DNA of 64,000 bases from Candidatus Bathyarchaeota archaeon (lineage in GTDB: Archaea > Thermoproteota > Bathyarchaeia > 40CM-2-53-6): NCBI GenBank assembly GCA_963833125.1, contig CAWHWX010000004.1, positions 160,001 to 224,000 on the forward strand, written 5' to 3'. The translations under genes and the position numbers were made by a program. This document shows, in pieces, positions 8,005 to 63,130 of the stretch (within the stretch, counting starts at the first letter, position 1; every line of letters starts with the position of its first letter). The notes under the pieces are model-generated. The model saw only the letters and a list, made by a program, of their open reading frames with translations. It was not told where the DNA came from and searched no databases.

Positions 8005-8146
8005 GCAAAACCACACATATAGAAGTCGAGTTATATACTTTAATATATATACGTATTGTTTCGAATGAAGCCGCGCGCTTTGGGCCAAAAAGAATAGCAA
8101 AGACTTTTCTACGCGCTAGAGCCTATTACGTTGTGGTGTTCTTTGG

Positions 8147-8335
8147 TTGAAAACATGTAAGTATTGCAACAAACAGAATTCAGACGACAATAATTACTGC
8201 AACTGGTGTAGAACCGTGCTAAGTAATTTTCCAGACCGACCACAACGAGGACAGTGTCTGATTTGCGGAACCCGATGCGCTCCTGACGCGCGCTTCTGCG
8301 GATTATGCAGTTCACCGCTGATAGTATTCAGCTGA
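8147..8335 (+). CDS. Double zinc-ribbon small protein
   Basis: Four CxxC motifs (CKYC, CNWC, CLIC, CGLC) in 62 aa. Confidence 0.7.
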   Translation: MKTCKYCNKQNSDDNNYCNWCRTVLSNFPDRPQRGQCLICGTRCAPDARFCGLCSSPLIVFS

Positions 8336-8651
8336 GCTCTATCCGCACAAATTCCGCTCTAACCCCCTCATTCTTTTAATTCCTCTGCTTTTGATATGCA
8401 AGTTTATTCGAGTCTGACTCGATTTGCGGTAGTCCTTTCTACTGAAATTGGGTTTAGCCGTGCCATGAACTTGAAGAGAAGTGATTACCAGTGGAAACAA
8501 CGCCAAAGGTTTGATGACATCGCGCCTGATCGAAGGCCAAAAACACACAGGTTCGTTTAAGAGAAAACCTTGGAAGGAGTTCGATTGAATGAGAAAAAAG
8601 AGTTCGAGCACCGTCTGTGCTCGGTTTCGTTGGTTTAGTTTCTACGCTTGA

Positions 8652-8834
8652 TTACCAATAGTACGGATATCCATACCAACCGTAGCCGTACCAAGGCCAG
8701 GAATAGTTCCATCCATAGAATGGATAGCTGTACGAACCGTAGCTGTAACCATAGGACGGATAACCGTATGTTGGATAGCCATACGAACCGTGGCCGTAAT
8801 AGTTGTTCCCAGCACATACACATACACATGACAT
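8652..8834 (-). CDS. Tyr/Gly-rich 60-aa peptide
   Basis: GGAGGTGA RBS before the ATG; directly downstream of RHH copy 2; 19 Tyr, 11 Gly, 5 Trp, no D/E/K/R. Confidence 0.7.
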   Translation of the reverse strand: MSCVCVCAGNNYYGHGSYGYPTYGYPSYGYSYGSYSYPFYGWNYSWPWYGYGWYGYPYYW

Positions 8835-8855
8835 TTCTATTCTTCACCTCCGTTC

Positions 8856-9023
8856 TTACATTCCACGAACTCCAAGCCTCTGCCAGTCCTTACCTAACCA
8901 ATCACTGACAGCTTCCTCTATCGCGATGCTAAGATCCCCCTTCTTTCCTCCAAGCCTTTTCACGACTGCAACTCGGAGTCGGCGCTCAATTTCATCCGAG
9001 AGTACTACGTAGATTTTTCCCAA
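8856..9023 (-). CDS. RHH/CopG-like DNA-binding protein, copy 2 (55 aa)
   Basis: Hand-translated: MGKIYVVLSDEIERRLRVAVVKRLGGKKGDLSIAIEEAVSDWLGKDWQRLGVRGM. Confidence 0.8.
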   Translation of the reverse strand: MGKIYVVLSDEIERRLRVAVVKRLGGKKGDLSIAIEEAVSDWLGKDWQRLGVRGM

Positions 9024-9084
9024 AGGATGTTTAGCTCCCCCATATGTAGGGGTAAAGCGAGATATAAGCTTGTATATTTAGCTT

Positions 9085-9106
9085 TATACATATATAACTT
9101 TATAAC
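9085..9106. promoter_or_regulatory. Divergent promoter/operator with three 8-bp-spaced TATA units
   Basis: TATA at 9085, 9093 and 9101; ATATATAACTTTATAA matches ATATATAACCTTATAA at 9661 in 15/16 positions. Confidence 0.55.
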
Positions 9107-9145
9107 TGCCAATACACTATATCAAGTGTCGGAGGGAAATTCAGA

Positions 9146-9214
9146 ATGAGCATAAACATCGGTATTCTTGGGATAATAGTTATTGTTGTAGTTCTCTGGT
9201 TAATTCTTCGTTAA
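9146..9214 (+). CDS. 22-aa single-helix membrane micropeptide
   Basis: MSINIGILGIIVIVVVLWLILR; GGAGG at 9131; TATA upstream; 18-bp perfect palindrome at 9221-9238 downstream. Confidence 0.5.
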   Translation: MSINIGILGIIVIVVVLWLILR

Positions 9215-9385
9215 AACAAACTTCGCTTCGAAGCGAAGCCCCTAACACTCATGCAGAGTTGCCCGTAGTTCTAGAAATGCGTGAAGGGAAGGGGTACACT
9301 CTCAATTACGAGGGGTGATGAGCCGTTATGGCGGAACCTAGAGAGGAGCCCTCTGAGTTTAAGGATGCATGTTGGCCGCAACGAT

Positions 9386-9613
9386 TCAGGAGGACCGTTT
9401 CGAAGTACTGTGTCTTCCTGAGCTTTTTTCACGCAGCTGACCGTACACCCATTTGCTGATGTTAGCTTCTGTAGCATGTTTTTCCAACCATTCTTTGATC
9501 GCCAGCTCGATAGCGCTGCTTAGATCGCCCTTCTTTCCTCCGAGAATTGTGACAACGGCCAGTCGGAGTCTGCGTTCGGTTTCGTCAGAAAGAACTATAA
9601 ACATTTTTCCCAA
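9386..9613 (-). CDS. RHH/CopG-like DNA-binding protein, copy 3 (75 aa)
   Basis: MGKMFIVLSDETERRLRLAVVTILGGKKGDLSSAIELAIKEWLEKH. Confidence 0.8.
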   Translation of the reverse strand: MGKMFIVLSDETERRLRLAVVTILGGKKGDLSSAIELAIKEWLEKHATEANISKWVYGQLREKSSGRHSTSKRSS

Positions 9614-9655
9614 AAATCCACATTCCCTAAGGCTTACTATATTCAGCGTTATCGT

Positions 9656-9676
9656 TATAAATATATAACCTTATAA
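9656..9676. promoter_or_regulatory. Divergent promoter/operator with three 8-bp-spaced TATA units
   Basis: TATA at 9656, 9664 and 9672, between RHH copy 3 and gene 9713. Confidence 0.55.
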
Positions 9677-9712
9677 GCGCAGTTCAACAATGTACGGCCT
9701 GAGTTAATTGAT

Positions 9713-9967
9713 ATGAGCAAAATCTATTCCATGATAGCGCCGTTACTTGGCCTAAGTCTAATTCGAATCCTTAACGCGATAGGTGTGAATCAGAATGCAG
9801 GTACGATGGTTAATTCAGCGTACCAGTGGCTGCTGACTCTAAACCCAATCGTTATGATAATACTAGGCATAATCGTATTCTTTGCGGGCAAGCTAGCGAA
9901 ATGGGTCGGAATCATATTGGTCATCGTGGGACTAATCTTCCTCGCGCTGCCATACCTACACCTTTAG
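9713..9967 (+). CDS. Small membrane protein
   Basis: 84 aa with 2-3 hydrophobic helices. Confidence 0.7.
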   Translation: MSKIYSMIAPLLGLSLIRILNAIGVNQNAGTMVNSAYQWLLTLNPIVMIILGIIVFFAGKLAKWVGIILVIVGLIFLALPYLHL

Positions 9968-9994
9968 ATTTAGAACTCAAAGGGATGATCTTCG

Positions 9995-10312
9995 ATGGCT
10001 AACGCTTCCTTGGGAAAGGCTGCATACTATCTAGCATTAATCGGCGGAGTAATCCTCATAATCCAAGGGATTCTGAGTTTCGTGGGAATGGCTTTCATGA
10101 TGTTCATGCCATCCTTGCTTGGAGCCCTCGGTGGAGCCTTCTGGGGAATCATTGAAATCATCCTCGGCCTTGTTGCCATCTATGGATCCAAACGTCTTCC
10201 CGACCTCATGTGGGATATCATTCTCATAGTGGTTGGCGTGCTCGGAGGCGGCCTTGGCGGTATACTAGTACTCCTGGGCGGCATAGTCGGCTTACTATGC
10301 AAGTTCCTCTAA
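9995..10312 (+). CDS. Gly-rich small membrane protein
   Basis: 105 aa, several TM helices, GxxxG-rich. Confidence 0.75.
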   Translation: MANASLGKAAYYLALIGGVILIIQGILSFVGMAFMMFMPSLLGALGGAFWGIIEIILGLVAIYGSKRLPDLMWDIILIVVGVLGGGLGGILVLLGGIVGLLCKFL

Positions 10313-10389
10313 ATCAGATCACCGTGAAGGAGCACGCACACATTATCTTGTGTATCCCCCTCCCTCGACCGACCGGAGTGTGAAACAAC

Positions 10390-13117
10390 TTGAGCGAAAA
10401 AGGAAGGAGAACTTCACTTCAAGCAGCAGTAATCCTTCTTACAATATTTTCCTTTTCCGTCATGGCGGTAAACGCACAACAACTACTTCCCACATTCGCC
10501 TTAGCCGCTACACCTTCGAGTTTGAATCTAGTCGCAGGCTCGCAAGCGAACGTAGTTGTAACCGTCACTTCGTTGAACGGATTCAGTGATCCAGTGCAAC
10601 TGTTTTTCTCAGTCCTTCCGGTTGGTGTCACAGCTAATTTCAACTCAAATCCCGTTACGCCGCCTGCGGGAGGTACCTTGACTACAACCGCGTCGTTCAC
10701 CGCGGATTCAAATGTGGCAGGTAACACATACTACCTCACACTTGTTGGATCGAGCGGTTCAACTATCCACACATATGCATTTAACCTGCAAGTAACACCC
10801 AAGACTCTCCCGCAGGACTTCGCGCTTTCTCCATCCCCGACAGTTGTCAACATACTGCCTGGCGGACAAGGATCCACCACCGTCACCGTCTTCTCCCTCA
10901 ACGGTTTCTCTACAAGCGTGTCCTTGGTACATAGCGGGGAACCATCCGGTGTGTCTTTGAGTTTCTCGGAAAACCAATTGTTCCCTCCCCCGGGCGTTAC
11001 GAGCCCTTATGTTACATCATCTAGTTCAGTGCTTTCGATCTCCGTCCAGTCGTGGGTGGCCGTTGGACTCTATCCAATCGCCGTAACCGGTACAAGCGGC
11101 CCGTTAGGTATCCCTCAAAGCGTAATCGTTCATTCGACCCAGCTCACTTTGCAGGTGGTTTCAGCTAAGGATTTCAATATCGCAGTTGCGCCTTCGAGTC
11201 TAAGCATTCAGCCTGGCACATCTACTACCGCCACGGTAACCGTGGGCTCTTACAGCGGATTCTCTTCTGCCGTGCAACTAACATCCAATAGTCCTCCCGG
11301 GATTTCTTTGAATTTCTCACCAAATCCGATGACCGAATTATCTGGTGGGGCAGCAACCGCAACCGCGACCGTATCAGTCAGTTCGTCGACTAGTTCGGGA
11401 ACGTATTCGATGCAGATTATTGGGACCAGCGGAGGGTTAACGCACAGCACACCGTTCACGATTATCGTATCTCAAACTGCGAGCCCAGACTTTACTATTA
11501 CCTCTTCGTCCGTTCCGATCGGAGTTAATCAAGGAGCGAGCTCAGGAGGAACTGTTTATGTGTCCTCGGTCAACCACTTTACGTCGCCCATTACCCTGTC
11601 CGCATCCTGGTTTGGCATGTCCCCTCAAGGCCTATCTTTCACTATTCCTGGGTCTGCCACTCCGCCCGACGATGGGTCTTCCCCCGCTGCCGTAACATTT
11701 TCCGCGTCGACTACGACTCAACCAGGAACATATACGCTCAACGTAGTGGGGACGAGTGGTTCGCTTAGCCATTCGGTGAATATCTTGGTCCAGGTCCTGG
11801 TATTCGGAGGCGACTTCAGCGTCTCAGTTTCACCGACACCGATTAGTGTGATTCAAGGTTCACAAGGAACCTCAACTGTTACGGTGCAAGCCTCCGGAAC
11901 ATTCTCCTCTCCTGTCACTCTCACAACAGCCGCTGTGAACGGATTGAGTGTAAGCTTCAATGCGAGCCCTATACCTGTCTCGTTGGCCGGAACCGCAGCC
12001 GCCCAGGTTGTCGTATCGGTCGCAGGATTTACACCAACGGGAACCTACACGATACCGATTATTGCAACAAGCGGATCCCTTTCGCATTCCACAAGCTTGG
12101 CGGTGACCGTGATTCGGGCTGGCTTGCAAGACTTTGCAATTGGAATTTCGTCAGCGACGATCATGATAAATCAGGGAAGTTCAGCGGCGGCAACGGTATC
12201 TGTCTATTCACAAAACGCATTCAGTTCCAGTGTCTCACTGTCAGCTTCCTGGAATAGCATAGTTCCTGGCGGAGTCACGATCAACCTCTACGGGCCTGTA
12301 ACCCCGTTGCCAAACGCAGTTGCCTCCTCGACTCTAACCATAACCACTTCCCCTACGGCCACAACGGGAAGCTACCTGCTACAGGTCACCGGGTTCAGTG
12401 GAGTGCTTGTACACACAGCGAACGTGACTATTCAGATCACGTCACCTTCAGCTACCGTTACAACTGTTAGCGGTACATCCACTAGCGGAACGTCTACTAG
12501 CGGCACATCGACCAGCGGTACATCCACTAGCCCAAGTAGTGCGCCTCCCGCATGCCTCATCGCGACTGCAACATATGGTTCACAAGTCGCACCTGAGGTT
12601 CAGTTGCTCCGCAACTTCCGTGATAACTCTATCATGGAAACCAAATCGGGGTCCAATTTCATGCTAGTTTTCAACGCCTGGTACTATTCATTCAGCCCCG
12701 GTGTCGCCGCATACTTGAACACACACTGGGTTGAACGAACAGCAATGAAAGGCGTCCTCTATCCCCTCGTAGGAATCCTATACCTAACATCAGACCTGTT
12801 CTCGGCAACCTCTTCCTACCCCGAATTTGCTGTACTAATATCCGGCCTCCTAGCAAGTTCCCTAATCGGCGCTTTCTACTTGGGAATACCATTGGCTGTG
12901 TTGAGAGCTAGAGTCAGGCGTCTCCGCAATTGGAAGGGCCAGGCAGATGCTTGAGATAGCGCTCGCTGCCATGCTGTTTGGTGGATTAGGAACCCTCGCG
13001 TTCGGAGAACTGTTCTCATCACAACCAGCCCTCATAATATCGACAACTACGATAGTACTTTCAACACTATTCATGTCCTCAGTAATAGTATCCGAGAGAC
13101 TCGCCAATCGACTCTAG
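10390..13117 (+). CDS. Ser/Thr-rich surface protein: six ~105-aa Ig-like repeats plus CFI-box-CTERM domain; frameshift near 12945
   Basis: Signal peptide; repeats begin TF/DF-x-L/I/V and end GxSG...HS/HT; CLIATATYGSQVAPEVQLLRNFRD; TM tail continues in another frame to TAG 13117. Confidence 0.85.
12469..12528 (+). repeat. 4 x 15-bp coding repeat (SGTST linker)
   Basis: AGCGGTACATCCACT-like units with synonymous variation. Confidence 0.85.
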
Positions 13118-15380: not shown

Positions 15381-16025
15381 TAGACGATCATCAAGTTGTA
15401 ATTTCTATGAATGAGGTAACGGCCTTGACCTAGACTCAGAGGCCTGTTCTTAGAGAGCCTCAAGATTGTGTGGCCTGCGCCACATGGTTTCTGGCTGTTA
15501 CCTCTGGTAACTATATGTCCTCCGCGCTATATTAACACACTAAGCTCTCCCTTTCGAACCCCACTCCGACAACCATAAGATTTCTTACATCCGAAATTTC
15601 ATGCGAACTCATGCGGAAAGACGACTTCCGCTTGAGCAAATTGAGGAGATCGACGGTCGACGTGCACATATCGCAGCGCTCGAAGCAATCCTTGGTTCTA
15701 GTCGTGAGCCCTCGTCGTTTTCCTTCTCTTTCTTCTTTTCGACTTATCTTCTTGATCTTGAGGCAATTTATTTCACGCAGCTAGGAATTTGCGATTCTCT
15801 TTCGTAATTCCTTTTTGTCATAAGATTTCGTGGCCCTCGTTCTGCTGTTCTCTTGTTTTCTTTCCTCTCGTCTCTTCCTTTCTGACTCTGCTTCTCTCCT
15901 TTCCTTTCACAACCGATCCCACACTAGCTACCGATGAGAAAGCCTATCGCCAAATGGACGTTTCACCGAAGTCAAGCGGCGATGCGAATAGAACCTTTCC
16001 TGTTCAGTACCAGAACCGCAAGTAA

Positions 16026-16148
16026 TCAGGGGTTCGGGCCAAGTCGCGGCTGCGTGAAGGATTCTCGGCATTGTTCTGAGCAGAATGCGTACCCCTCGTG
16101 TAGAACAGGTTTGTCGATTTTCTTACCGCAATTTGAACAATACGCCAT
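16026..16148 (-). CDS. TRASH/YHS-like 40-aa metal-binding protein
   Basis: Hand-translated: MAYCSNCGKKIDKPVLHEGYAFCSEQCRESFTQPRLGPNP; paralog of 1614-1835. Confidence 0.7.
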   Translation of the reverse strand: MAYCSNCGKKIDKPVLHEGYAFCSEQCRESFTQPRLGPNP

Positions 16149-16214
16149 GTGAGCTTCCTTTGTCCCTGCAGCCAACTCTCTACACACCATTTGCGATTTC
16201 TAATCATTACCTCT

Positions 16215-16364
16215 ATGTCAAGCGTCTTCTACAAACTTTTTGGATTTGGGGTTCGGCTAGCCAAACGACCCAAAGCATGGTATAGGCGAAGGATCCCCAG
16301 ACAACAAACGGCGACTGTAACTGTCGATGGCGAGAATTACCCTCTAAAGGATGATGGAGCATAA
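16215..16364 (+). CDS. Small hypothetical protein
   Basis: 49-aa ATG ORF divergent from the TRASH peptide. Confidence 0.3.
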   Translation: MSSVFYKLFGFGVRLAKRPKAWYRRRIPRQQTATVTVDGENYPLKDDGA

Positions 16365-16529
16365 CGGTGTGCTTTGCAATTCAAGCAAATATTAACAGGA
16401 AAAGTTCTTCAATTCGCAGCATGTTAGGAATCGATGGAAGGGTCTTGATTTGACGAGGCCAGAATGGCAGAAGAAACGGAAGAGAATGGCGAGTAGAGCG
16501 GGTCAAGCGAGCGGCAGGACGCGGTAGAT

Positions 16530-16677
16530 TTGGCACAAGTTGGGAAAGGCCTCGAAGACCAAAAATGCCCCAATTGCCATCGAATCAACTTACGCCCTCT
16601 GTGGAACCTGCGGGAAATGCAACAAGTGCTGTAATTGTAGCTCCCACACTAACCGCTCGGACACCGAGCCAGGTTAA
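16530..16677 (+). CDS. Possible Cys-rich micro-protein with one indel
   Basis: MAQVGKGLEDQKCPNCHR in one frame, YALCGTCGKCNKCCNCSSH in the next. Confidence 0.35.
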
Positions 16678-16733
16678 CGCACATGCGGGCAATTAATTTC
16701 GATCGACCTTAACAACCCTAGTTTGTTTTGCAA

Positions 16734-17228
16734 TCAGAATCTATGCCGACTCCGATGTCTCCTCGTGAGTCGTCGATTTTCCGCATCCTCGTAAACCTTA
16801 AACCAAGAGGGATGTTTGCCCACAAAGTCAACGAAGCGCTCCATCCGATTTACAGTATCTTTGTGGACGTGATGCTCGATGCCTTCCCGTCCAACTTCGC
16901 GTTGTTCTCTCCTACTCCCAGAATTTGAAGGAATCTGATTATTGTAGACGTGCTTCTGTTTAATGAACCGCGCCATCTCCTCCCCTTTGGCCGTGAGTCT
17001 AAGGCCGCGATAGCGTTCATAGACAATGAGTCCCATTCCATCCAATTTTTGAAGCATGTTCGTGACACTAGGAGTCTTAACGCCCAAACGTTCCGCAATG
17101 TCCGTTGACCCGGCGTAGCCTTTCGTCTGGACGAGGTCGTATACGACTTCAAGGTAGTCTTCAACCCGTGTGAGGTCGAACGCAGGGTTCAGTCGCGAAC
17201 CTTGAGTCATCACATTGACACTTCCCAT
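16734..17228 (-). CDS. mntR: DtxR/MntR-family metal-dependent regulator with internal compensating indels
   Basis: VEDYLEVVY, DIAERLGVKTPSVTNMLQKL, YERYRGLRLTAKG, EGIEHH; missing helix present in the 16850-17164 frame. Confidence 0.88.
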   Translation of the reverse strand: MGSVNVMTQGSRLNPAFDLTRVEDYLEVVYDLVQTKGYAGSTDIAERLGVKTPSVTNMLQKLDGMGLIVYERYRGLRLTAKGEEMARFIKQKHVYNNQIPSNSGSRREQREVGREGIEHHVHKDTVNRMERFVDFVGKHPSWFKVYEDAENRRLTRRHRSRHRF

Positions 17229-17391
17229 ACTGATGAGAAAAACAGGTAGTCATTAGACTGAATAATTCTGACAGGCTGAAACAAGGTTATGACTAGTGCG
17301 ATTCTTCTGTTGACGAATTCTTTCATCAGATTCTCGTAACCTCCTTCTTTCACCATCATTGCCCACGGTCAGTTTGTTCTTAGCAACTAGT

Positions 17392-18723
17392 TTACCGCAG
17401 CATAGCGTAGACAAGGTACAGATGATAGACGCCATAAGCGCCTAGAACTATAGCCTGCAGGTAGACGCTGAATTGGGCCATAAGATAGTATATCAGGTAA
17501 GTGTTTAGCGCCACAATTATCGCCCCGGTTAACACGGCGAGGAACGTGGTTATGCGTTTGTTAACTAACTGCCCCATGAGGTCCTTCTTAGCGGTGAATG
17601 TTAGCAAAGGTATCATGGGTAACGCGATCATCAGGCTGAGGAGTACTTGGCTGTAGACCAGCAGGAGCAGCGGATCGAGACCTAGAAGCACCGCTATCGT
17701 CGTTGGGAAAACGTTGATAACTCTCGTAATAACCCTCCTGACGGTCTTGTTTACCTTTGTTCCCAGTAACCCATCCATGATCGCTTGGCCGGCTAATGTT
17801 CCGGTCGTCGAGGAGGCAAGGCCGGAGCACAGCAACGTCACTGCGAACACAATGGCGGCAAGCGGTCCGTAGATTGGTATCATTATGCGATATGCTTCAT
17901 CTACTGCAGACACGTTGCTGAACTTCGGATAGAACGTCACGGCACTCACGATGAGGATGGCCGCATTGACCATCCCCGCGATCGTGAAAGCAACGATGCT
18001 TTCGCTGGTATGGAGCTTCAACAATCGTTTTTCTTTTCTTGACCGCTCCGGTGCTACCAGTTTGTCTCTCGTCAGCGTGGAATGTACGTACAGTGCATGT
18101 GGCATGACGGTCGCGCCGATGATGCCAACTATCAAGGTGATACTGCTGAGGCCAAAGGTTGGCGAGACAAAGGACTGACCATGCTGGGGTATGTTTAGGC
18201 CGGTAACGAATAACTTCGTAGAGAAAACCGAAACTGATGATCGATACGAACAACATGAAGAAGTACTCAAGTGCCCTGAAACGCCGCCATGTCAGGGCTA
18301 GCAGAATGAGGATGTCGGCGGCTCCGAATAGCGACGCGTAAAGAAGGGGCACGCCGAAAAGTATGTTCAACGCGATAACCGTCCCTAAGTACTCCGCCAG
18401 GTCAGTGGCCGCGGCTGCGGCTTCGGCGCCAATCCAGTTCAGATAAATGTCAAACTTGGATTTAAGAGACTCTCGGACGAGCCCCGCCAAATCCTTGCCC
18501 GTTGCTATCCCTAGCTTTCCTGACAGATACTGAAGGAGCATCGCCATGAAATTCGCCATCCAGACAACCCAAAGCAAACCGTAGTTGAACGCCGCGCCCG
18601 CCTGAATGTCCGTCCCGTAATTCCCGGATCCATGTATGCCATGACTCGGCGGATCAAAGTCACGGGACACCGCCGAAGAGTGAAAAGTGCACGATACCTG
18701 CTAAGGAATCGCCGGAGCTGCAA
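17392..18723 (-). CDS. mntH: Nramp-family Mn2+/Fe2+ transporter, frameshifted in this sequence
   Basis: AYMDPG/GNYGTDIQAG, GATVMPHALY and TGTLAGQ spread over three frames. Confidence 0.9.
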
Positions 18724-57283: not shown

Positions 57284-58184
57284 TCACTTGGTCTTTGCCT
57301 GTTGAGTCTGAGTATTTGATGGCGGGGTTTGTGATTTGCTCTTTCCTCTGTAGTGTACTGCGAAAGCGCCGAAGATTATGGCGAGTATTCCAAGGCCGCC
57401 TGCAGCTGCTTCTAGCGTTGTATTCGTGTTTTGGTTTGTGCTGAGTTGCTGGTTCAGGTTGGCGATTGTTGCGTTCCTTTGTGCGATTGTGTTTTGGGCG
57501 TTCTGGAGCTGTTGTTGAAGTTGTTGGTTCTGTGCTTGGGTTTGGTTCAATTGCTGTTCGGCTGTTTGGTACTGTGATTGAAGGGCTACGTATTCAGGGG
57601 TTTGGGCTTTGATGTATGATAGCGGGTGCTACTCCGCTGTCTGTCGCGGTGGAGTAGGAGTTTGATGGGTAGGCGTAGTAGCTGGACGAGTATGGGTAGT
57701 AATTGTAACCGTAACCGCAGTATACGTCGTAATAGCAGTAGGCGCTAGAGGAATTGTAGTTGGCCGGGTAATAGTAGTAGTTCGCGTAGGCTGTCTGGAC
57801 ATTCTCAGTTATGGATGCGAAAAGTGAGGTTCTCGGAGCATTTTGTGGGACCGTGAACGTAATCTGCTTGTTGAGAGCACTCCCACTGTTCACGTATCCG
57901 TTATTGTTTAACGTCGCCGATGTCAGCTGATGAAGGGTGTTGCCATCTACGTAGAAAATCTGCGCCGTTAAACTGGCGCTACTGAAACTGTTTTTCGCAT
58001 TGGCTTGCATGTTGACCGTCACAACGTCACCTGGATTAACCTGCGAAGGGAAGGTCATTTGAACGGTGAAATAACTCAAATTCACTGTATAGCTAGTTTG
58101 AGCTGCTTGGGCATGCGCAACAACTACAACTGATAGAGCCACCATCAGAATCGGAAAAGCAAGTATTAGCCGCGATGATTTCAT
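57284..58184 (-). CDS. Secreted, membrane-anchored protein: beta domain, Tyr-rich segment, Gln coiled coil, TM; frameshift near 57620
   Basis: Signal peptide; YANYYYYP...YCYYDVYCGYGYNYYPY; continues into ORF 57284-57550. Confidence 0.8.
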
Positions 58185-58245
58185 TCTCTTACTTCTCCTG
58201 ATTGTCTAGTTTGTTACCTCCAGTAACAGTAGGATATAAATATTG

Positions 58246-58253
58246 TTACGTAA
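58246..58253. repeat. Left 8-bp target-site duplication TTACGTAA
   Basis: Identical copy at 61321-61328, each abutting the GG/CC ends of the TIRs. Confidence 0.8.
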
Positions 58254-58314
58254 GGTAACGTTACGTTGTCGGTTGATGAACGAAATTCTTGTGGGTGTTA
58301 CCGTTCGGTTGATG
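58254..58314 (+). repeat. Left TIR, bipartite
   Basis: GGTAACGTTACGTTGTCGGTTGAT (22/24 match to right end) plus inner TGTTACCGTTCGGTTGATG (19/19). Confidence 0.9.
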
Positions 58315-58324
58315 TGGTGTGGTA

Positions 58325-58842
58325 TTAGGGTAGGAAATATTGGACTTGAAACGTAATCGGGTAAAAGTATGAGGCACCGAAATCCTTGGTACAGGGAACG
58401 GTGTGACCTATGACCCAACCTACAGCCCCCGCAAAGCTACTGCTCGGAAAAGCCGTGACATCAATCAGCCGATAGATGTTGCCATCAGACGCATGCAAGA
58501 GTACGCAGCCTCCACTCGTCTGTTCATAAGGCTGAGCCCCAAAATCTAACGTGCCTGAGATGCACCTCTCCCCAGTTGACACTGTTACATTAGCGCATGA
58601 AGGCGCTAGAGTCTGGATCCAGATTCAGACGGAAGCAGATAACAGTTTTCTCCGTAGCTCGCTGTCTGCATGGTTTGGGTTACTGTAACAAAACCCGTAA
58701 CATAGTTTTGTCGAGTTTGCGTCTGGGTCGAAAAAATAGACTGAGTAACAAAGACTGGATGAGTTGAAGAATATCCGGCGTATCCGAGACTGGCTAATGC
58801 AACCACAAGAAGAGTTATCGTAACGAGAATGCTGGACTTCAA
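58325..58842 (-). CDS. Cargo: signal-anchored Thr-rich/Cys protein; frameshift near 58610
   Basis: N-terminal hydrophobic helix and T-rich linker (58606-58842), then GTL...GCVLL...YRL domain (58325-58582). Confidence 0.65.
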
Positions 58843-58871
58843 GGTACGCTAAGAGTTAACCTTGTTTCTTC

Positions 58872-60021
58872 TTAAGATTTCTTGATATCCTGTTTCGCAT
58901 TCTGAATTATGGTAAGCCATTTGTCTTTGCCCTTGACTTCTATTCCTGCTCTCTCAGCAGGGGTTTGACCTTTCAACGCCATGTGTGGGCGTATGTAGTT
59001 GTGGTAAATCCGCATACCTATCAAGATTGGTGTGTCGGGTGTTTCTAGGGTTCGCATAACCTTCTCTCTATCGCGAATTTCTCCGTTGAAGCGTTCCATT
59101 TTGTTGTTGTGAACTTGACCGTTCATGCGGATTTCTCTGATGTGTTCGGTTCCGTTGCCGTCGTGTCCAGAACTCTTTCGTGTACGCTTCGTGAAAGTTC
59201 GGTGCACCATCGGTTATTAGGGTCTTAGGCTGTTTGTCTGCAATCGCTTTTCCTAACTTGAATAGTGGGCGTAGGTCGGCAGTGAATTTAGTGTCAGCTA
59301 CTTCCTGAGCTATCCAGAATCTTGTTTGGTCGTCCATGAGAGCGTAGAGGTACTTGAGGTTACCTTTCACTTTCAGAAACACTTCATCCGCACGCCAAGT
59401 GTCACTAACATTCGGTGTGATCTTGTCGAGATACTTCTCCATAAGTGCGGAGTATTTCTTTATCCACATGAACACGGTCTTGTAGCTAACTTGAACTCCA
59501 AGCAGCTGCAACGATCTAGCAGTATTCCGTAGGCTCTCACCTGAGAAGTAGAGTTGCATAGCCGTCGTAATTCCCTGTGGACTATGCTTCATACGCTCGA
59601 ATCCAATGTTCACGCTGAAAGTCCGGTTACAATCAGCGCATAGGAATCGCTGTATGTCACCGTATTTGTTGTGTCTGATTCCGAACCTTTTCAATTCCTT
59701 ATCGGAGTGACAGTAGATACAAGCAGTGATCTCGACAGGTTGAATGACTACGTTTTCTCTTACCTTTTCTCGTAACTGTTCTCGTATCTGGCAAGCTATG
59801 ATATGCTTGCACCGATGGACTTGATGTTGCTCTAAGACTCGGTAGTGGAAGTCTAAGCAGTTACACAGCCAATAGCCGCTTTCTCTCTTGACCACATCAT
59901 AACAACCATCCCTACTTTGTGAAGCAACTTTGTAGTGTTGCTCATCCATCTGTTGAATTTGGCTCGGATTCTCAGCGATCAATCGCCCCTTTTCTTCACG
60001 GGAGAGAACGGCTTGCATCAC
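58872..60021 (-). CDS. tnp: IS6/IS240-family DDE transposase with N-terminal SWIM and zinc ribbon; frameshift near 59160
   Basis: CNC...CKH (SWIM); CIYC...QRFLCADCNRTF; WRADEVF, ITDGAP, NNKMERFN, YHNYIRPH. Confidence 0.9.
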
Positions 60022-60032
60022 TCTTTTCCTCT

Positions 60033-60084
60033 GTTACGATATAGTAACGCAACATAAATATAAGGCTTGTTACCATATGGTAAT
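60033..60084. promoter_or_regulatory. Divergent promoter: two GTTAC-N6-GTAAY palindromes flanking a TATA
   Basis: GTTACGATATAGTAAC 60033, ATAAATATAAG, TTACCATATGGTAA 60070 (perfect palindrome). Confidence 0.6.
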
Positions 60085-60094
60085 ATGAAGCATC

Positions 60095-60283
60095 TTGGTA
60101 CGAAAAGAGATTCTCGGAACCAGCGAAAGGAAAACTCTGGAAGCGTACTTGAAAGGGGAACGATTGAAGGGCTACAATGTCCTACTATGGCGCATCCGTC
60201 AATTAGGTCTTAAAGCAATCATTGAGGGTTGCGAGAAAGACCTAACTCTACTCAAGAAGCTCCTGCATAATGGTAAGTCGTGA
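60095..60283 (+). CDS. Small basic helical protein divergent from the transposase
   Basis: 62-aa ORF; regulator role is inferred from its position only. Confidence 0.6.
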   Translation: MVRKEILGTSERKTLEAYLKGERLKGYNVLLWRIRQLGLKAIIEGCEKDLTLLKKLLHNGKS

Positions 60284-60292
60284 AATCTCACT

Positions 60293-61054
60293 ATGGATAG
60301 CGTGACCCAGAAGAACAACAATCAACAAGTCAAGGGCAGTCGTCTTGTTCTCGCAATCGACCTTGCGATTCTTGGCATCTTCTTATTTTCGCTTCTCGCA
60401 GCAGGATACAGCTATACCGCATCCAGCACTTATGTTCAAAGTCTGGCTCAAGGTGAGGCTAATGCCGCGAACATTCCAACTTGGGTTATTGCTTACAATT
60501 TCACGACCCAAGATGTGTTCAGTGCATTGAACCCGATAACTGTGGACGTAATTGTACATGTTTATCCCACTTATTTCAAATCCTACCCAAATGAAACATT
60601 TGCAAACTTCCCTCGTATTGTGTACGTCTACTTTCCAGCAGCCATACCAATTACTGTAACTTACCCTCTAACCGGCCCTGTAACCGTCACTCAAGCACGA
60701 TATTCTCAGTACGGCGAAATTCTTGGGGCTCCAATGGAGTTAGTGAAAAGACCCGACAACACTTGGAGAAACAGCACAAAAATAATGTACGCTCAAGAAG
60801 GCCAAACTTGTGCATTCCTAAACGTGGAGCAATTGTACTCTGTTAGTTGCGTAGGTTCTGCCCCTCTTTTGACAATTTCCAGCGTTGCCGCACTCTACCA
60901 ATTTCAAGCGAACAGGCTAACACTCAGTTTGACATGGTTAGTTTTCGCATTCACTGTGATTCTCTGCCGCGACTTCTACCCTGAGTTCGCACGGAACTTT
61001 CAGCGGGTCTTGCGAGATCGGCGCGAAAAGACACTACAAGTACTCCCAACATGA
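60293..61054 (+). CDS. Cargo: two-TM membrane protein with extracellular domain
   Basis: 253 aa, N- and C-terminal TM helices, several NxT/S sequons. Confidence 0.75.
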   Translation: MDSVTQKNNNQQVKGSRLVLAIDLAILGIFLFSLLAAGYSYTASSTYVQSLAQGEANAANIPTWVIAYNFTTQDVFSALNPITVDVIVHVYPTYFKSYPNETFANFPRIVYVYFPAAIPITVTYPLTGPVTVTQARYSQYGEILGAPMELVKRPDNTWRNSTKIMYAQEGQTCAFLNVEQLYSVSCVGSAPLLTISSVAALYQFQANRLTLSLTWLVFAFTVILCRDFYPEFARNFQRVLRDRREKTLQVLPT

Positions 61055-61259
61055 TTATCAAACCAAAACTGAAAGTTCCTAGACCCAAGCACAGCACAAC
61101 GGTCGAATAGGCTGCAAGCCAAGGAGTAATTACGAAACCGACCCACAACACCATTACGAGCGTACCTAGACATATAGTAAACGGCGCAATTTCACCAAGA
61201 TTTCGCTCAAACAGCGACCGAGTATTTTTCGTTCACTTTTACGCTTCTCGCGGACGTTC

Positions 61260-61320
61260 CATCAACCGAACGGTAACAGTCGGATTCTATCCCGCTATCA
61301 ACCGTGAACGTAACGTTACC
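61260..61320 (-). repeat. Right TIR, bipartite
   Basis: Reverse complement of the left TIR with the same 42-bp offset of the inner block. Confidence 0.9.
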
Positions 61321-61328
61321 TTACGTAA
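61321..61328. repeat. Right target-site duplication TTACGTAA, shared with the next element
   Basis: Lies between CC of element 1 and GG of element 2. Confidence 0.8.
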
Positions 61329-61615
61329 GGTAACGTGAAGTTGTCGGTTGACCGTTTCCTTTGTGAAAAATCGGTTGATTTGCTACTTCACGGATGAAAT
61401 CAATCCAGAACCCTTTAGGCATCGGATCAGGATCAGACGACAAACAAGCTCATGAATTCCACATGGCGATAACATCCTTTTGAACGCTTAGGCAAGAGAA
61501 GTCAGCGGACGGTTTGTTACAGCCCCAAGAAATGAGCATAACAGACGAGGACGTTAAGTTACCTTATACTTTCCGGTCCTAATCCAATCGTTTCAGTAGC
61601 TCTTGAGGAACGGCC

Positions 61616-62491
61616 TCATCTCAAGAGCGACCGAGTTTCGACGGAGGAGTTCGGCCTAGTTCTCCGTCTAAGGACTCCGTACGCGAGCACGGTGAGGACT
61701 GCGATTAGCGGTAATCCTAACGGGTATTCAGGGATCGGCGCAACGGGTGCGCTGAAGGCGGCTCCTACCTCCACCCAAAAGTCGGAGCCTGTTGACCCGC
61801 TAATAGTAATTGTTCCCGGGAAAGTGGTTGGAGATGAGAGGGGGTCCGCAATCTCCACGGCAGAACACGTGTTCGATGGATTGGGGGCGGTGACGTAGGA
61901 GAATCCAGAACCCGGGTTAATTGCTTCCATCCCACACAATCCGAGTCCTACAACCGCGATTAGGAAAGCAGGAGGCGTGAAAGAGGTTGATGAGGTTGCA
62001 ATCGACGACGATGGGGGCGGACCCGAAGTTCCAGTCCCGGTCGATACGCTTGGGGGAGTTACTCCGGAGACCTCGAAGAGGTAGACATCAAGAACATTTG
62101 CAGCTGGGCCTATGCTCACCGTTACAGTGTCAGAACAAGGACAACCTCCAGAAGAGATAGTGGCGTAATAGATGGCGGAAGTGAACAACGTCAAAGTACT
62201 ATCGACAAGCTCAACAGCCTTATTGTAGGAAGAACCGAGGCTGTCCGTAACAGAAGAGACGGTTTCTAAACTATTTTGAATAAGGATCCCCACGACAACT
62301 ACATCCCCGCTGGTTACAGGCATCACGAACGCCTTAGAGGCGGTGGTAACGAAGGTGGGAATACCACTTTCTTGAGTTGTCTGCTGAACGACCGAAACGC
62401 TGGCATGAACTTGGGTAGCCAACAGTACGGGGCCGAACCCAGCTATCAACAATGCTGCGAAAATTAACCGAATTATTTGCGGATAGGCCAA
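61616..62491 (-). CDS. Cargo: Ser/Thr-rich secreted protein with PEF-CTERM anchor
   Basis: Signal peptide; ends IPEYP-TM-RRR. Confidence 0.85.
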   Translation of the reverse strand: MAYPQIIRLIFAALLIAGFGPVLLATQVHASVSVVQQTTQESGIPTFVTTASKAFVMPVTSGDVVVVGILIQNSLETVSSVTDSLGSSYNKAVELVDSTLTLFTSAIYYATISSGGCPCSDTVTVSIGPAANVLDVYLFEVSGVTPPSVSTGTGTSGPPPSSSIATSSTSFTPPAFLIAVVGLGLCGMEAINPGSGFSYVTAPNPSNTCSAVEIADPLSSPTTFPGTITISGSTGSDFWVEVGAAFSAPVAPIPEYPLGLPLIAVLTVLAYGVLRRRTRPNSSVETRSLLR

Positions 62492-62586
62492 ACCCAGCTG
62501 ACTAATGAATCTAGGTTACGCGTTGCGTATATAAGCCCATGTCTCCGCTGCCGAAGAATCAAGGTAACGGTACTGTTGCATTCTAG

Positions 62587-63088
62587 TCAGTTCTTACGCT
62601 TACTGGCGTTCTGAATCAGAGTCAACCACTTGTTTTCACCTTCAATCTTGATTCCCGCAACCTCAGCAGGAGTTTTTCCTTTCAACGCTTCGTGCGGTCT
62701 AATGTAATTGTGAAAGATTTGCATACCTGAAAGAATGGCCGTATCAGGCTTTTCTAAAGTTCGCATGACCTTCTCTCTTTGACGTAATTCTCCATTCATT
62801 CTGTCCATCTTGTTGTTGTGGCGAACTCCGTTGAATGCAATCTCTCGGATGTGCTCTGTTCTGTTTGCGATCTTGTTTGTTCGAAATTCTTGTTCGTAGG
62901 CTTCGTGAAAGTTCGGCGCTCCATCGGTTATGAGAGTCTTAGGATTCTTCTCAGCAACTCGTTTACCTTGTTGAATAGAGACCGTTAGGTCGGCTGTGAA
63001 TTTGGTGTCAGCTACTTGCACTATCCAGAAACGTGTTCGTTCATCTATCATGGCATAAAGATACCGAGTCCCGTTTGACCTTGAGGAA
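62587..63088 (-). pseudogene. Truncated IS6-family transposase (C-terminal half)
   Basis: Homology begins at FLKVK, just after the first catalytic Asp; ITDGAP present; third acidic residue is D (NNKMDRMN). Confidence 0.85.
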
Positions 63089-63130
63089 TAGCAAGAGAAA
63101 CTGGATACTCGGCTAAGTCAATTTAAATAA

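What the first reader, a model, noticed from the sequence alone, without database searches (positions are those of the whole stretch)
61313..61379. Tandem stacking of cargo transposons at a shared palindromic target (cassette-array behaviour)
Seen: ...GTTACC|TTACGTAA|GGTAAC..., so element 1's right end, one 8-bp target copy and a diverged left end of element 2 abut. Together they form a perfect 24-bp palindrome (61313-61336). Both elements have the same orientation, paralogous but non-identical transposases and different cargo. Inference: site-specific or end-targeted insertion regenerates the target each time and builds an integron-like array with a DDE enzyme. This is the best candidate for an undescribed system here.
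Basis: partly seen in the sequence, partly recalled or inferred. Interest (0 to 1): 0.78.

Follow-up and report, generated by a model that had tools for sequence, protein, structure and literature searches.

The report
Archaeal cargo transposons stacked end-to-end
The palindrome is the seam between two IS6-like, gene-carrying transposons, and comparison with related archaeal genomes shows that this transposon family often lands exactly beside the end of a resident copy, re-copying the same 8 bases each time and so building arrays of up to four or five different units.

Summary
Window 61313-61336 is a perfect 24-bp palindrome made of element 1's right end, the 8-mer TTACGTAA and a second element's left end. 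Element 1 (58254-61320) is a 3,067-bp IS6-like unit with passenger ORFs, 22/24 inverted repeats and TTACGTAA on both sides. Its transposase is frameshifted. Element 2 is a truncated relic.

The junction recurs. In 41 related genomes, 29 of 33 end-to-end junctions have a spacer of exactly 8 nt. Arrays of three to five boundaries share one 8-mer, and that 8-mer differs between loci and species (TTACGTAA, TTACGCCA, TGTAAGAA, GTGAAGGA, AAATATCA, CTGTTGAG). Among 53 transposase-bearing units with perfect duplications, 18 abut another family end at 8 nt (about 0.2 expected by chance). The other 35 are solitary with unrelated duplications.

TTACGTAA is therefore not a specific target. It is the local 8-mer of a conserved site upstream of hsp20, of which the window holds a duplicated copy.

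My best reading (0.68) is end-adjacent targeted copy-in insertion that re-uses the resident's target duplication. This resembles IS26, IS30 and IS911 end-targeting but gives a different product. My searches found no description of it. I rate it a new variant of a known kind, interest about 0.65.

The parts
58182..58245 (-). Copy of the hsp20 upstream region, with a TGTTACC-N3-AGTAACA palindrome and a TATA-like ATATAAATATT. It forms the outer flank of the array and sits directly in front of ORF196 (57594-58184).
   Evidence: Window 58182-58278 is 82.8% identical to G000 C16:135858-135760, which lies upstream of the true hsp20. The same flank borders the arrays in G016, G017, G021, G011 and G013.
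58246..58253 (.). Left copy of the 8-bp target duplication, TTACGTAA.
   Evidence: (D6, I1).
58254..58277 (+). Left terminal inverted repeat (IRL) of element 1, GGTAACGTTACGTTGTCGGTTGAT.
   Evidence: Identical 24-mers occur at G000 C16:407713 and C19:230035.
58325..58582 (-). Passenger ORF85 between the IRL and the transposase. No family assigned.
   Evidence: The region has no other copy in the genome.
58872..60021 (-). IS6-like DDE transposase gene of element 1, split into 317-aa and 112-aa frames by a 1-nt insertion near 59161.
   Evidence: PF13610 DDE_Tnp_IS240, E = 2.4e-10. The frameshift was located against the intact 85%-identical copy in G019. It is the only near-full-length copy in G000.
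60293..61054 (+). Passenger ORF253, with hydrophobic N- and C-terminal segments. No family assigned.
   Evidence: Unique in the genome and absent from the closest related unit.
61297..61320 (-). Right terminal inverted repeat (IRR) of element 1.
   Evidence: (I1); 22/24 match to the IRL.
61321..61328 (.). Right copy of TTACGTAA. It is also the 8-nt spacer of the junction.
61313..61336 (.). The reported 24-bp perfect palindrome: IR tip, 8-mer, IR tip.
61329..61352 (+). Left terminal inverted repeat of the second, older unit, GGTAACGTGAAGTTGTCGGTTGAC.
   Evidence: 21/24 to IRL1. The same IR type starts a unit in the hsp20 arrays of G016 (third unit) and of G021 and G013 (second unit).
61616..62491 (-). 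ORF291, a predicted secreted protein with a C-terminal PEYP, hydrophobic and RRR tail. It is probably a passenger of unit 2.
   Evidence: Tail paralogues lie next to other family IRs or transposase relics (C30:42788-43588, C16:407841-408290, C19:230103-230549). No Pfam or NCBIfam hit.
62587..63051 (-). Relic of unit 2's transposase: the C-terminal 154 aa only. Similarity to intact genes ends near 63092, and no right end was found.
   Evidence: (PF13610 at 21 bits, below the 27-bit cut-off). The next gene is a 4HBT thioesterase starting at 63131.

Best explanation
The palindrome is the seam between two members of a divergent, cargo-carrying IS6-like transposon family of Bathyarchaeia and Nitrososphaeria. 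The transposase has a SWIM zinc finger, a zinc ribbon and a DDE_Tnp_IS240 domain. Units are 2-6 kb, have about 24-nt inverted repeats and make 8-bp target duplications. Element 1 inserted into the 8 bp immediately flanking the left end of an older resident unit. Like any insertion it duplicated those 8 bp, so the same 8-mer now lies on both sides of element 1 and separates the two facing ends.

This is a family habit. The transposase appears to choose, far more often than chance allows, the 8 bp directly abutting a resident family end. Every such event regenerates an end-plus-8-mer target, so heterologous units, including transposase-less ones, pile up into arrays that share a single 8-mer.

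Inferred chemistry: a transposase bound to the resident end presents that end's own scissile phosphate (the IR/flank boundary) to the 3'-OH of an incoming end. The second incoming end attacks the other strand 8 bp away. Replication and cointegrate resolution then leave a simple insertion.

What is shown: the structures, the exact 8-nt spacing, the shared 8-mers, the mixed orientations and the recurrence across lineages. What is inferred: the targeting mechanism and the copy-in route.

TTACGTAA is simply the local 8-mer of a conserved docking site upstream of hsp20. The window carries a duplicated copy of that site.
For: (1) Spacing is exact. 29 of 33 ACGTTACC-N(0-24)-GGTAACG sites in 41 genomes have N=8. 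19 of 26 GTTACC-Nk-GGTAAC sites in 76 named loci have k=8, and the reversed-word control gives 0 at k=8. The same holds for GGTTCT-type ends, 4 of 6 at k=8.
(2) Among 83 full-length transposase hits, 53 resolve to units with IR >=14/24 and a perfect 8/8 duplication. 18 of these 53 abut another family end at 8 nt. The chance expectation is about 0.23 (106 sides x 9/4096).
(3) Arrays share one 8-mer at all boundaries, and the 8-mer differs between arrays: G017 TTACGTAA x5, L029 GTGAAGGA x5, L084 (Nitrosotalea) AAATATCA x4, L025 CTGTTGAG x4 with mixed IR types, G021 TTACGCCA x3.
(4) At the syntenic hsp20 site the 8-mer varies by species (TTACGTAA, TTACGCCA, TTACGACA, TTACGTCA), and the inner junctions carry that species' own variant. 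The 8-mer was therefore re-copied within each lineage.
(5) Repeated polarity: a younger unit with a perfect duplication abuts an older relic in the window, in G000 C30 and in G011 C3.
(6) G017 holds two 100%-identical 2,644-bp units in opposite orientation at positions 1 and 4 of one array, each bounded by the 8-mer. This indicates a recent replicative hop into another boundary.
(7) Both orientations occur with direct 8-mers (L084, L025), as expected for transposition.
Against: No direct observation of an insertion event, an intermediate or a polymorphic array was obtained. Public reads did not cover the junction. Species-level genomes share no unit at the hsp20 site, so no precise single-unit gain or loss was seen.

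Most units outside the GGTAAC-type clade are solitary: 32 of 40, against 3 of 13 in the GGTAAC-type loci. All 14 MITE-size pairs of about 186 bp in G000 are solitary. Targeting is therefore a bias and not a rule, and it may depend on the subfamily or the locus.

30 of the 83 transposase hits could not be resolved and are not counted. Loci from one genome or genus are not independent. Some array units have inverted or non-matching 8-mers (L004 2533-6294, L012 6396-10696, G000 C19:3401-4615), which requires later rearrangement. In the window both transposases are defective, so nothing is active here now.
Confidence: 0.68

Rival explanations
1. Cassette-like conservative exchange. Units excise as circles carrying an IRR-8mer-IRL joint and re-integrate by a transposase-mediated reciprocal exchange at the boundary of a resident end. 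This would be IS26 'targeted conservative' chemistry with the translocatable unit shrunk to one element plus 8 bp.
For: It is formally equivalent to IS26 TU integration next to a resident IS26 (PMC7986276 sections 21-23). It would explain why transposase-less units (1,325, 717, 586 and 459 bp) sit in arrays and why unit content turns over completely between species.
Against: Abutting ends are heterologous (different IR types in L025 and L029), whereas the review reports that IS26-type conservative targeting needs identical reacting ends. Units occur in both orientations (L084, L025, G017). Units arriving from elsewhere would bring foreign 8-mers, yet arrays are uniform and species-specific. 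No circle junction could be looked for.
Confidence: 0.12
2. Host-site-directed stacking, as with Tn7 at attTn7. The enzyme recognises a host feature of the hsp20 upstream region, for example the TGTTACC-N3-GGTAACA palindrome that resembles two IS tips, and always inserts at the same 8-mer beside it, pushing older units outward.
For: All 18 hsp20 loci found in 23 genomes of the genus have a TTAC-type 8-mer followed by GGTAAC at the same position. Relics tend to lie distal and intact units proximal (window, G016). The palindrome resembles family ends (k=3 hits).
Against: Arrays with unrelated 8-mers and flanks occur elsewhere (G019 C18, G011 C3, G000 C30, L025, L029, L084, L032, L033, L043, L052, L063, L085). 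A similar palindrome-plus-TATA site at G000 C16:238156 carries no element. Continuous occupancy since one ancestral insertion would explain the conserved position equally well.
Confidence: 0.1
3. Sequence-specific insertion into the palindromic octamer TTACGTAA, the first reader's 'shared palindromic target'.
For: TTACGTAA recurs at junctions in G000, G011, G013, G016 and G017. Several other junction 8-mers are 1-3 changes away from it.
Against: All those junctions lie at one syntenic locus or its copy. 27 of 30 TTACGTAA sites in G000 carry no family end. Other arrays use at least 12 unrelated 8-mers. The 35 solitary units and the 14 MITE pairs have unrelated duplications.
Confidence: 0.04
4. 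No targeting at all. The pattern is neutral accumulation of insertions in a tolerated region, tandem duplication of one element, or an assembly artefact at repeats.
For: Insertion sequences commonly cluster. MAG assemblies can misjoin repeats. G000 is 88% complete with 7% contamination.
Against: Neutral accumulation predicts nested insertions at many offsets, not 29 of 33 at exactly 8 nt. The abutting units differ in transposase (about 70% DNA identity) and in cargo. The junction type is present in at least 14 independent assemblies. These include a contig of more than 1.3 Mb (G017 C4) and two records titled 'chromosome' (L032, L033).
Confidence: 0.03

Closest known systems
IS6/IS26 family, including IS26 'targeted conservative' insertion next to a resident IS26 and the resulting IS26 arrays
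   Same: It has a DDE_Tnp_IS240 catalytic domain, 8-bp duplications and short terminal IRs. It prefers to act at the end of a resident family member and produces multi-unit arrays. Signs of replicative and intramolecular events are present (identical inverted copies, inverted 8-mers).
   Different: Units are 2-6 kb with passenger genes inside the IRs. The review gives 700-890 bp for the majority of members and a single known passenger-carrying member. The transposase is about 380 aa with SWIM and zinc-ribbon N-terminal domains and scores below NCBIfam's IS6 cut-off. In IS26 arrays the cargo lies between IS copies and no duplication is made. Here the ends face each other across exactly 8 bp, the 8-mer is duplicated, the reacting ends are not identical and both orientations occur.
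IR-targeted insertion and tandem dimers of IS30, IS21, IS3/IS911 and IS256 (abutted IRR-IRL 'reactive junctions')
   Same: [quoted passage not shown] The transposase uses a resident end as a guide for strand transfer.
   Different: Those junctions join two copies, or the two ends, of the same element and serve as copy-out/paste-in intermediates in other transposase families. Here the junctions join different elements, persist in genomes across species, and belong to an IS6-like enzyme for which the review contrasts TU structure 'in stark contrast' with abutted ends.
Tandem stacking of Tn7-like elements at att sites, casposons at ef-2 or tRNA genes, and 'double insertion' of eukaryotic transposons
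   Same: Re-use of one target position regenerates the duplication between neighbours and yields head-to-tail arrays. Examples are the casposon tandem in Krupovic et al. 2019 (PMC6563490) and hobo or R1 tandems in McGurk & Barbash 2018 (PMC5932611).
   Different: In those cases re-use is explained by recognition of a host sequence or a strong site preference. Here ordinary insertions have unrelated 8-mers and the common feature of re-used sites is a resident family end.
Integron cassette arrays
   Same: A chromosomal platform at a conserved position accumulates small, heterologous, often promoter-less gene units, and the content differs between related species.
   Different: No tyrosine recombinase or attI/attC sites were seen. 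Units are bounded by transposon IRs and an 8-bp duplication, many carry their own DDE transposase, and orientation is not fixed.

Membership tests
IS6 family (ISfinder sense) | Transposase with the IS6-type DDE domain (Pfam DDE_Tnp_IS240) | tested here: met
   PF13610 E = 2.4e-10 for the window's 317-aa frame. E = 2.9e-14 and 5.6e-14 for intact relatives.
IS6 family (ISfinder sense) | 8-bp direct target duplication | tested here: met
   Element 1 has TTACGTAA on both sides. 53 units have perfect 8/8 duplications.
IS6 family (ISfinder sense) | Score above NCBIfam's curated IS6 equivalog cut-off (NF033587, 125 bits) | tested here: not met
   97.0 and 111.3 bits for two intact relatives. IS6 is still the best-scoring family.
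IS6 family (ISfinder sense) | Compact element (700-890 bp for most members) with a single transposase ORF of 220-250 aa | tested here: not met
   Units are 2,031-6,415 bp with passenger ORFs and the transposase is 373-393 aa. Reference values come from PMC7986276 sections 4, 8 and 16.
IS6 family (ISfinder sense) | Transposition through cointegrates (replicative) | not testable with these tools
   Indirect evidence only: 100%-identical inverted copies in one array and inverted 8-mers around some units.
IS26-type targeted conservative arrays | IS copies separated by cargo DNA, with no new target duplication | tested here: not met
   Cargo lies inside the IRs, ends are 8 nt apart, and the 8-mer is present on both sides of inserted units.
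IS26-type targeted conservative arrays | Identical sequence at the reacting ends of the two elements | tested here: not met
   Abutting IRs differ: 21/24 in the window, and different IR types in L025 and L029. The requirement is taken from PMC7986276 section 23.
Reactive-junction tandem dimers (IS30, IS21, IS3, IS256) | Two copies of the same element joined IRR-spacer-IRL | tested here: not met
   Neighbouring units differ in transposase (about 70% DNA identity) and cargo. The spacer does equal the duplication length.
Integron | IntI tyrosine recombinase with attI, and attC-bounded cassettes | tested here: not met
   None of the 10 ORFs scanned around the junction is a tyrosine recombinase. 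Units are bounded by transposon IRs. No genome-wide search for IntI was made.
Tn7-like att-site stacking | Insertion at a fixed position beside a conserved host gene, directed by a target-selector protein | tested here: inconclusive
   A fixed position upstream of hsp20 is seen in 18 of 18 hsp20 loci found, but arrays also occur at unrelated sites. No TniQ/TnsD-like protein was looked for.

The most novel reading that the evidence does not exclude
This IS6-like family is a DDE-transposase-based gene-capture platform in archaea. A conserved chromosomal docking site, upstream of hsp20 throughout a Bathyarchaeia genus, would serially capture and exchange heterologous cargo units, including transposase-less ones carrying housekeeping-type genes such as a type II methionyl aminopeptidase. 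Neighbouring units would fuse into larger cargo transposons when inner ends decay. That would make it a transposon-built functional analogue of the integron, and a natural system displaying the 'end-to-flank' strand transfer proposed for IS26.
Probability: 0.2. Interest if true: 0.85.

Novelty: new variant of a known kind. Interest (0 to 1): 0.65.

Why it matters
Target choice is the least understood step for IS6/IS26-type elements, which drive the assembly of resistance regions in bacteria. Here a natural, widespread archaeal relative leaves a clean genomic record of insertion exactly at the flank of a resident end. The spacing is exact, the 8-mers are re-copied, and the units are heterologous.

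This gives a sequence-level prediction that can be tested biochemically: strand transfer at the resident end's own scissile phosphate and 8 bp away.

It also shows how cargo-carrying insertion sequences can assemble multi-gene arrays at one chromosomal site without a site-specific recombinase. Finally, it expands the IS6 family picture to 2-6 kb passenger-carrying members with SWIM zinc-finger transposases across Bathyarchaeia and Nitrososphaeria.

Tried and rejected
(1). My first de novo palindrome histogram used a filter that reassigned junctions with partly palindromic spacers to shorter spacer classes. The result is discarded and replaced.

(2) Public reads. One soil-metagenome run held 10% of the sampled words. 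Only three contigs of 161-225 nt were laid and none covers 61197-61510. There is therefore no information on the junction, on circles or on polymorphism.

(4) 'Empty site' test. G002 and G003 have only about 485 bp between hsp20 and the TPR/RtcB genes. Homology to occupied loci ends just after '8-mer + GGTAAC', and the rest is an unrelated CxxC-rich small ORF. I cannot tell whether this is the ancestral state or a remnant.

(5) Unit-by-unit comparison of hsp20 arrays from 15 loci found no unit shared between species at more than 60% coverage. No precise single-unit gain or loss could be shown.

(6) A possible 235-bp MITE at 61329-61563 is rejected as unsupported: IR match 15/24 counted by eye, flanks match 3/8, and there are no homologues.

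(7) The IR-like GGTAACGGTAC at 62563 is not an abutted junction. The preceding 8-mer is AGAATCAA with no GTTACC before it. It may be the relic's own old IRL, in which case ORF291 would not be its passenger. This remains unresolved.

(8) Weak single hits of the loose end-motif search are not counted as junctions: L053, L056, L081, L001 GTCACCTA, L052 TCTTCAAA. I estimate that about 8 chance hits are expected in 1.6 Mb.

(9) G000 C25:18622 (N7) and the two degenerate C16 junctions are not counted among the N8 sites.
Full report
**Observation.** The window reads ...AACGTAACGTTACC|TTACGTAA|GGTAACGTGAAG... The stretch 61313-61336 is a perfect 24-bp palindrome. It lies inside a 54-bp imperfect inverted repeat with 27-nt arms that are 85% complementary (I3). 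The left arm is the right end of a sharply delimited element. A 32-nt inverted repeat joins 58246-58277 to 61297-61328 (94%, I1). This gives 24-nt terminal repeats that match at 22/24 and TTACGTAA on both sides (58246-58253 and 61321-61328). Element 1 therefore spans 58254-61320 (3,067 bp). The right arm (61329-61352) is a third copy of the repeat, 21/24 identical to element 1's left end.

**Anatomy of the two units.** Element 1 carries three genes:
- ORF85, on the minus strand.
- A transposase, on the minus strand, in two overlapping frames of 317 and 112 aa.
- ORF253, on the plus strand.

The transposase has the IS6-type DDE domain (PF13610, E = 2.4e-10). Compared with an intact copy that is 85% identical in DNA (G019), it has one extra base near 59161. 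That position is not in a homopolymer run, so the gene is frameshifted unless the assembly is wrong there. The passenger regions on either side of the transposase are unrelated between these two close copies, and they are unique in this genome.

Unit 2 consists of its left repeat, ORF291 and only the C-terminal 154 aa of a paralogous transposase. ORF291 is a predicted secreted protein with a PEYP, hydrophobic and RRR tail. Similarity to intact transposase genes stops near 63092, and a thioesterase gene follows at 63131. In the whole 3.07-Mb genome, element 1 is the only near-full-length copy. All other transposase matches are fragments.

**The junction recurs in this genome.** A search for the terminal repeat allowing up to 5 mismatches found 41 copies. 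GTTACC-N8-GGTAAC occurs three times: the window, C19:4610 and C30:42706. I estimate about 0.2 per spacer length from 12 fixed bases. The C30 locus has the same architecture as the window. A 1,222-bp repeat-bounded unit with a near-perfect duplication (CAATTGA shared, one base out of register) is followed by 8 nt. Then comes the left repeat of an older unit, which carries a secreted-protein gene with the same kind of tail and a transposase stump.

**The junction recurs across relatives.** The pattern ACGTTACC-N(0-24)-GGTAACG was searched in 41 genomes: the window's own genome, 22 of its genus and 18 more distant. It matched in 14 genomes, 12 of them among the 22 of the genus. Merging both strands, I count 33 sites. 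29 have N=8, two have N=7, one has N=1 and one has N=3. The same pattern read backwards gave 4 hits in all.

I fetched thirteen of these places and mapped them. They contain arrays in which every boundary carries the same 8-mer:

| Genome / locus | 8-mer | Structure |
|---|---|---|
| G017 | TTACGTAA | five boundaries, four units |
| G016 | TTACGTAA | three boundaries |
| G021 | TTACGCCA, then TTACACCA | three boundaries, then one |
| G013 | TTACGTAA, then TTACGTGA | two boundaries, then one |
| G019 C18 | TGTAAGAA / TTCTTACA | three junctions |
| G019 C57 | TGACGTAA | two boundaries |
| G004 | TTACGACA and its inverse | two junctions |
| G011 C3 | CTTTCGGC | one intact unit abutting a relic |

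Units are 1.3-5 kb. Most carry a transposase of 373-393 aa plus other ORFs. Some carry cargo only. One example is a 1,325-bp unit in G017 whose single gene is a type II methionyl aminopeptidase (TIGR00501, 292 bits).

**The family and its wider behaviour.** Intact transposases combine three parts: a SWIM zinc finger (PF04434, in the G017 protein), an IS1/IS1595-type zinc ribbon, and the IS6 DDE domain. NCBIfam's IS6 model is the best hit, but at 97-111 bits it stays under its 125-bit cut-off.

A scan of one genome per species found 181 relatives, and 76 loci were kept. By record title, the window's genus is Bathyarchaeia from peat and soil MAGs. Relatives at 53-60% identity occur in Nitrososphaeria (Nitrosotalea devanaterra, Nitrososphaera sp. 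AFS, Nitrosocosmicus) and others.

In these 76 loci, GTTACC-Nk-GGTAAC has k=8 in 19 of 26 cases. The reversed-word control has none at k=8. The more distant members have GGTTCT-, GGCTCT- or GGTGCT-type ends and show the same junction: AGAACC-Nk-GGTTCT has k=8 in 4 of 6 cases. Further arrays appear:
- L029: GTGAAGGA at five boundaries.
- L084, a Nitrosotalea MAG: AAATATCA at four boundaries.
- L025: CTGTTGAG at four boundaries, with different repeat types abutting.

I then defined units strictly as a full-length transposase hit enclosed by repeats matching at 14/24 or better, with a perfect 8/8 duplication. 53 of 83 hits resolved and 30 did not. 18 of the 53 abut another family end at exactly 8 nt on at least one side, where chance predicts about 0.23. 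The other 35 are solitary with unrelated duplications. By clade, 10 of 13 are abutted in the GGTAAC-type loci and 8 of 40 in the others. These loci are not independent samples, because several come from one genome or genus and some repeat arrays already fetched.

**It is not a sequence-specific target.** Three results show this:
- The 8-mers of arrays and of solitary units have no common sequence.
- In G000, 14 MITE-size pairs of about 186 bp have different duplications. 6 are perfect, 10 are 7/8 or better, and none is abutted.
- TTACGTAA occurs 30 times in G000 and only 3 sites adjoin a family end.

The TTACGTAA-like junctions of different genomes all belong to one syntenic locus. On one side lies an Hsp20-family gene (PF00011) with a peroxiredoxin gene beyond it. 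On the other side lie TPR, HAD-hydrolase and RtcB genes.

The outer flank of every array there is the hsp20 upstream region: a TGTTACC-N3-RGTAACA palindrome, a TATA-like ATATAAATATTG, then the 8-mer and the first repeat. An hsp20 match was found in 18 of 23 genomes of the genus. All 18 show a TTAC-type 8-mer followed by GGTAAC at that position. In 16 the sequence continues as a family repeat, read by eye. In G002 and G003 it continues differently and no array is present.

The 8-mer differs by species: TTACGTAA in 7, TTACGCCA in 2, TTACTACT in 2, single cases of TTACGTCA, TTACGACA, TTACGGAA, TTACATGA and TTACTAAA, plus two shifted forms. Wherever inner junctions were available, they carry that species' own variant (G021, G004, G019, and the TTACGTAA genomes). 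Independent mutation of inherited junctions cannot produce that pattern. The 8-mer must have been re-copied within each lineage.

The palindromic nature of TTACGTAA, and hence the perfect 24-bp palindrome, is therefore a local accident of this site.

**Where the window fits.** G000's true hsp20 is on C16 (135856-136461). Its upstream region shows the flank, TTACGTAA and a decayed repeat with a transposase stump. The window holds a second, 83%-identical copy of that flank (58182-58253). It runs exactly up to the start codon of an unrelated secreted-protein gene, ORF196. Unit 2's repeat type (GGTAACGTGAAGTT...) also starts a unit in the hsp20 arrays of G016 (the third unit) and of G021 and G013 (the second unit). 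The window's array thus looks like a displaced or duplicated piece of the hsp20-site array. How it moved is not resolved.

**Mechanism.** What is shown:
- Exact 8-nt spacing equal to the family's duplication length.
- The same 8-mer on both sides of inserted units.
- Heterologous neighbours.
- Both orientations with direct 8-mers (L084, L025).
- Repeated 'young unit next to old relic' polarity (window, C30, G011 C3).
- Two 100%-identical 2,644-bp units in opposite orientation at positions 1 and 4 of G017's array, each bounded by the 8-mer. This is what a recent replicative hop into another boundary of the same array would leave.

What is inferred: new copies are inserted by ordinary DDE chemistry with an 8-bp stagger. 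The target is chosen because a transposase bound to the resident end places that end's own scissile phosphate (the repeat/flank boundary) in position for attack by the incoming 3'-OH. The partner end then attacks the other strand 8 bp away. Those two positions are exactly the ones needed for an insertion into the flanking 8-mer.

The IS6 review (PMC7986276; I read sections 21-23 and passages of sections 4, 8 and 16) describes this first step for IS26 targeted integration. [quoted passage not shown] In IS26 the reaction is completed conservatively, and the review states that it needs identical reacting ends. With non-identical units that route would be blocked, and a copy-in insertion abutting the resident is the expected outcome. 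That link is my inference.

**Rivals.**
- A conservative circle-integration (cassette) route cannot be excluded. It is disfavoured by heterologous ends, mixed orientations and uniform species-specific 8-mers.
- Recognition of the hsp20 upstream region may help explain that one locus. It cannot explain arrays elsewhere, and a similar palindrome-plus-TATA site at C16:238156 is unoccupied.
- Neutral clustering, tandem duplication and mis-assembly do not fit the exact spacing, the heterologous units or the recurrence in independent assemblies. Those assemblies include a contig of more than 1.3 Mb (G017 C4) and two records titled 'chromosome' (L032, L033).

**Comparison with what is known.** The review gives these figures for IS6 elements:
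- 700-890 bp for the majority of members.
- One known passenger-carrying member (ISDsp3).
- Zinc-finger extensions in clostridial clades.

It contrasts IS26 translocatable units 'in stark contrast' with the abutted-end circles of IS3, IS21, IS30, IS256 and ISL3.

McGurk & Barbash 2018 (PMC5932611, passages) describe double insertion at one target site with the duplication preserved in the joint. They cite bacterial tandem dimers. Krupovic et al. 2019 (PMC6563490, passages) report tandem casposons and 244 IS of 13 families in Thaumarchaeota. The passages I saw say nothing about stacking, and their supplements were not opened. A 2026 survey of archaeal IS (PMC13343696, term search only) never uses the words tandem, passenger or nested.

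Four full-text searches returned no description of IS6-type elements abutting at 8 bp or of such arrays in archaea. The library does not hold most subscription journals.

**Verdict.** The 'palindromic target' and the integron analogy do not. I file the elements as IS6-like rather than as standard IS6 members. I rate the stacking behaviour as a new variant of known end-targeted transposition. Confidence that end-adjacent targeting underlies the arrays is 0.68, and interest is 0.65.

Noticed in passing
window 58182-58253 and ORF196 (57594-58184); G000 C16:135785-135858: An 83%-identical second copy of the hsp20 promoter and leader, running exactly up to the start codon, sits in front of an unrelated secreted-protein gene. 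This suggests the array flank was duplicated or relocated together with the array. It may put ORF196 under heat-shock-type control.
   Followed up: partly
L001 (G017:C4) 7794-10437 and 15458-18101: Two 100%-identical 2,644-bp units, each with a 393-aa transposase and a 265-aa ORF, lie in inverted orientation. They bracket two other units in one array, and all are bounded by TTACGTAA. This looks like a recent replicative intramolecular event.
   Followed up: partly
L001 (G017:C4) 10446-11770: A transposase-less, repeat-bounded unit has a type II methionyl aminopeptidase (TIGR00501, 292 bits) as its only gene. That is a housekeeping-type gene as transposon cargo. Whether it is the genome's only copy was not checked.
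   Followed up: no
G000 C30:42788-43588, C16:407841-408290, C19:230103-230549; window 61616-62491: Secreted proteins ending in a PEYP(L/F)GL, hydrophobic helix and RRR tail repeatedly sit between the left repeat and the transposase. This looks like a recurrent passenger family. The tail resembles archaeosortase-type sorting signals, which I recall from memory. No NCBIfam or Pfam hit was obtained.
   Followed up: partly
G000, 14 places (e.g. C12:129237-129422, C18:132321-132506); also just past the window end at C4:224599: A MITE family of about 186 bp has the same type of terminal repeats, different 8-bp duplications at each copy, and no abutted copies.
   Followed up: partly
hsp20 upstream regions; G000 C16:238156; L015:8684, L076:7038: A TGTTACC-N3-RGTAACA palindrome lies next to a TATA-like box. 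It is a candidate operator of a heat-shock regulon, and its half-sites resemble the transposon's terminal hexamer.
   Followed up: no
L108 (G002:C5) and L109 (G003:C22), hsp20 to TPR-gene intergenic region: These two genomes lack an array. After '8-mer + GGTAAC' comes a small ORF rich in CxxCxGxG repeats, like a DnaJ-type zinc finger. This is either an ancestral end-mimicking site or a remnant.
   Followed up: partly
L083 (contig titled 'uncultured Acidobacteriota bacterium'): The contig carries the Bathyarchaeia-type hsp20 flank and a TTACGCCA array like G021 and G018. It is probably a mis-binned archaeal contig.
   Followed up: no
L001 14385-14900, L005 8377-8901, L008 1164-1712: V4R-domain ORFs (PF02830 in the first two; the third only by its similar C-terminal sequence, not scanned) lie directly downstream of the transposase in several units. 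This is a second recurrent passenger.
   Followed up: no
window 62563-62586: An IR-like GGTAACGGTAC lies 24 nt beyond the stop of the transposase relic. It is possibly the relic's original left end, which would make ORF291 part of a separate captured segment.
   Followed up: partly
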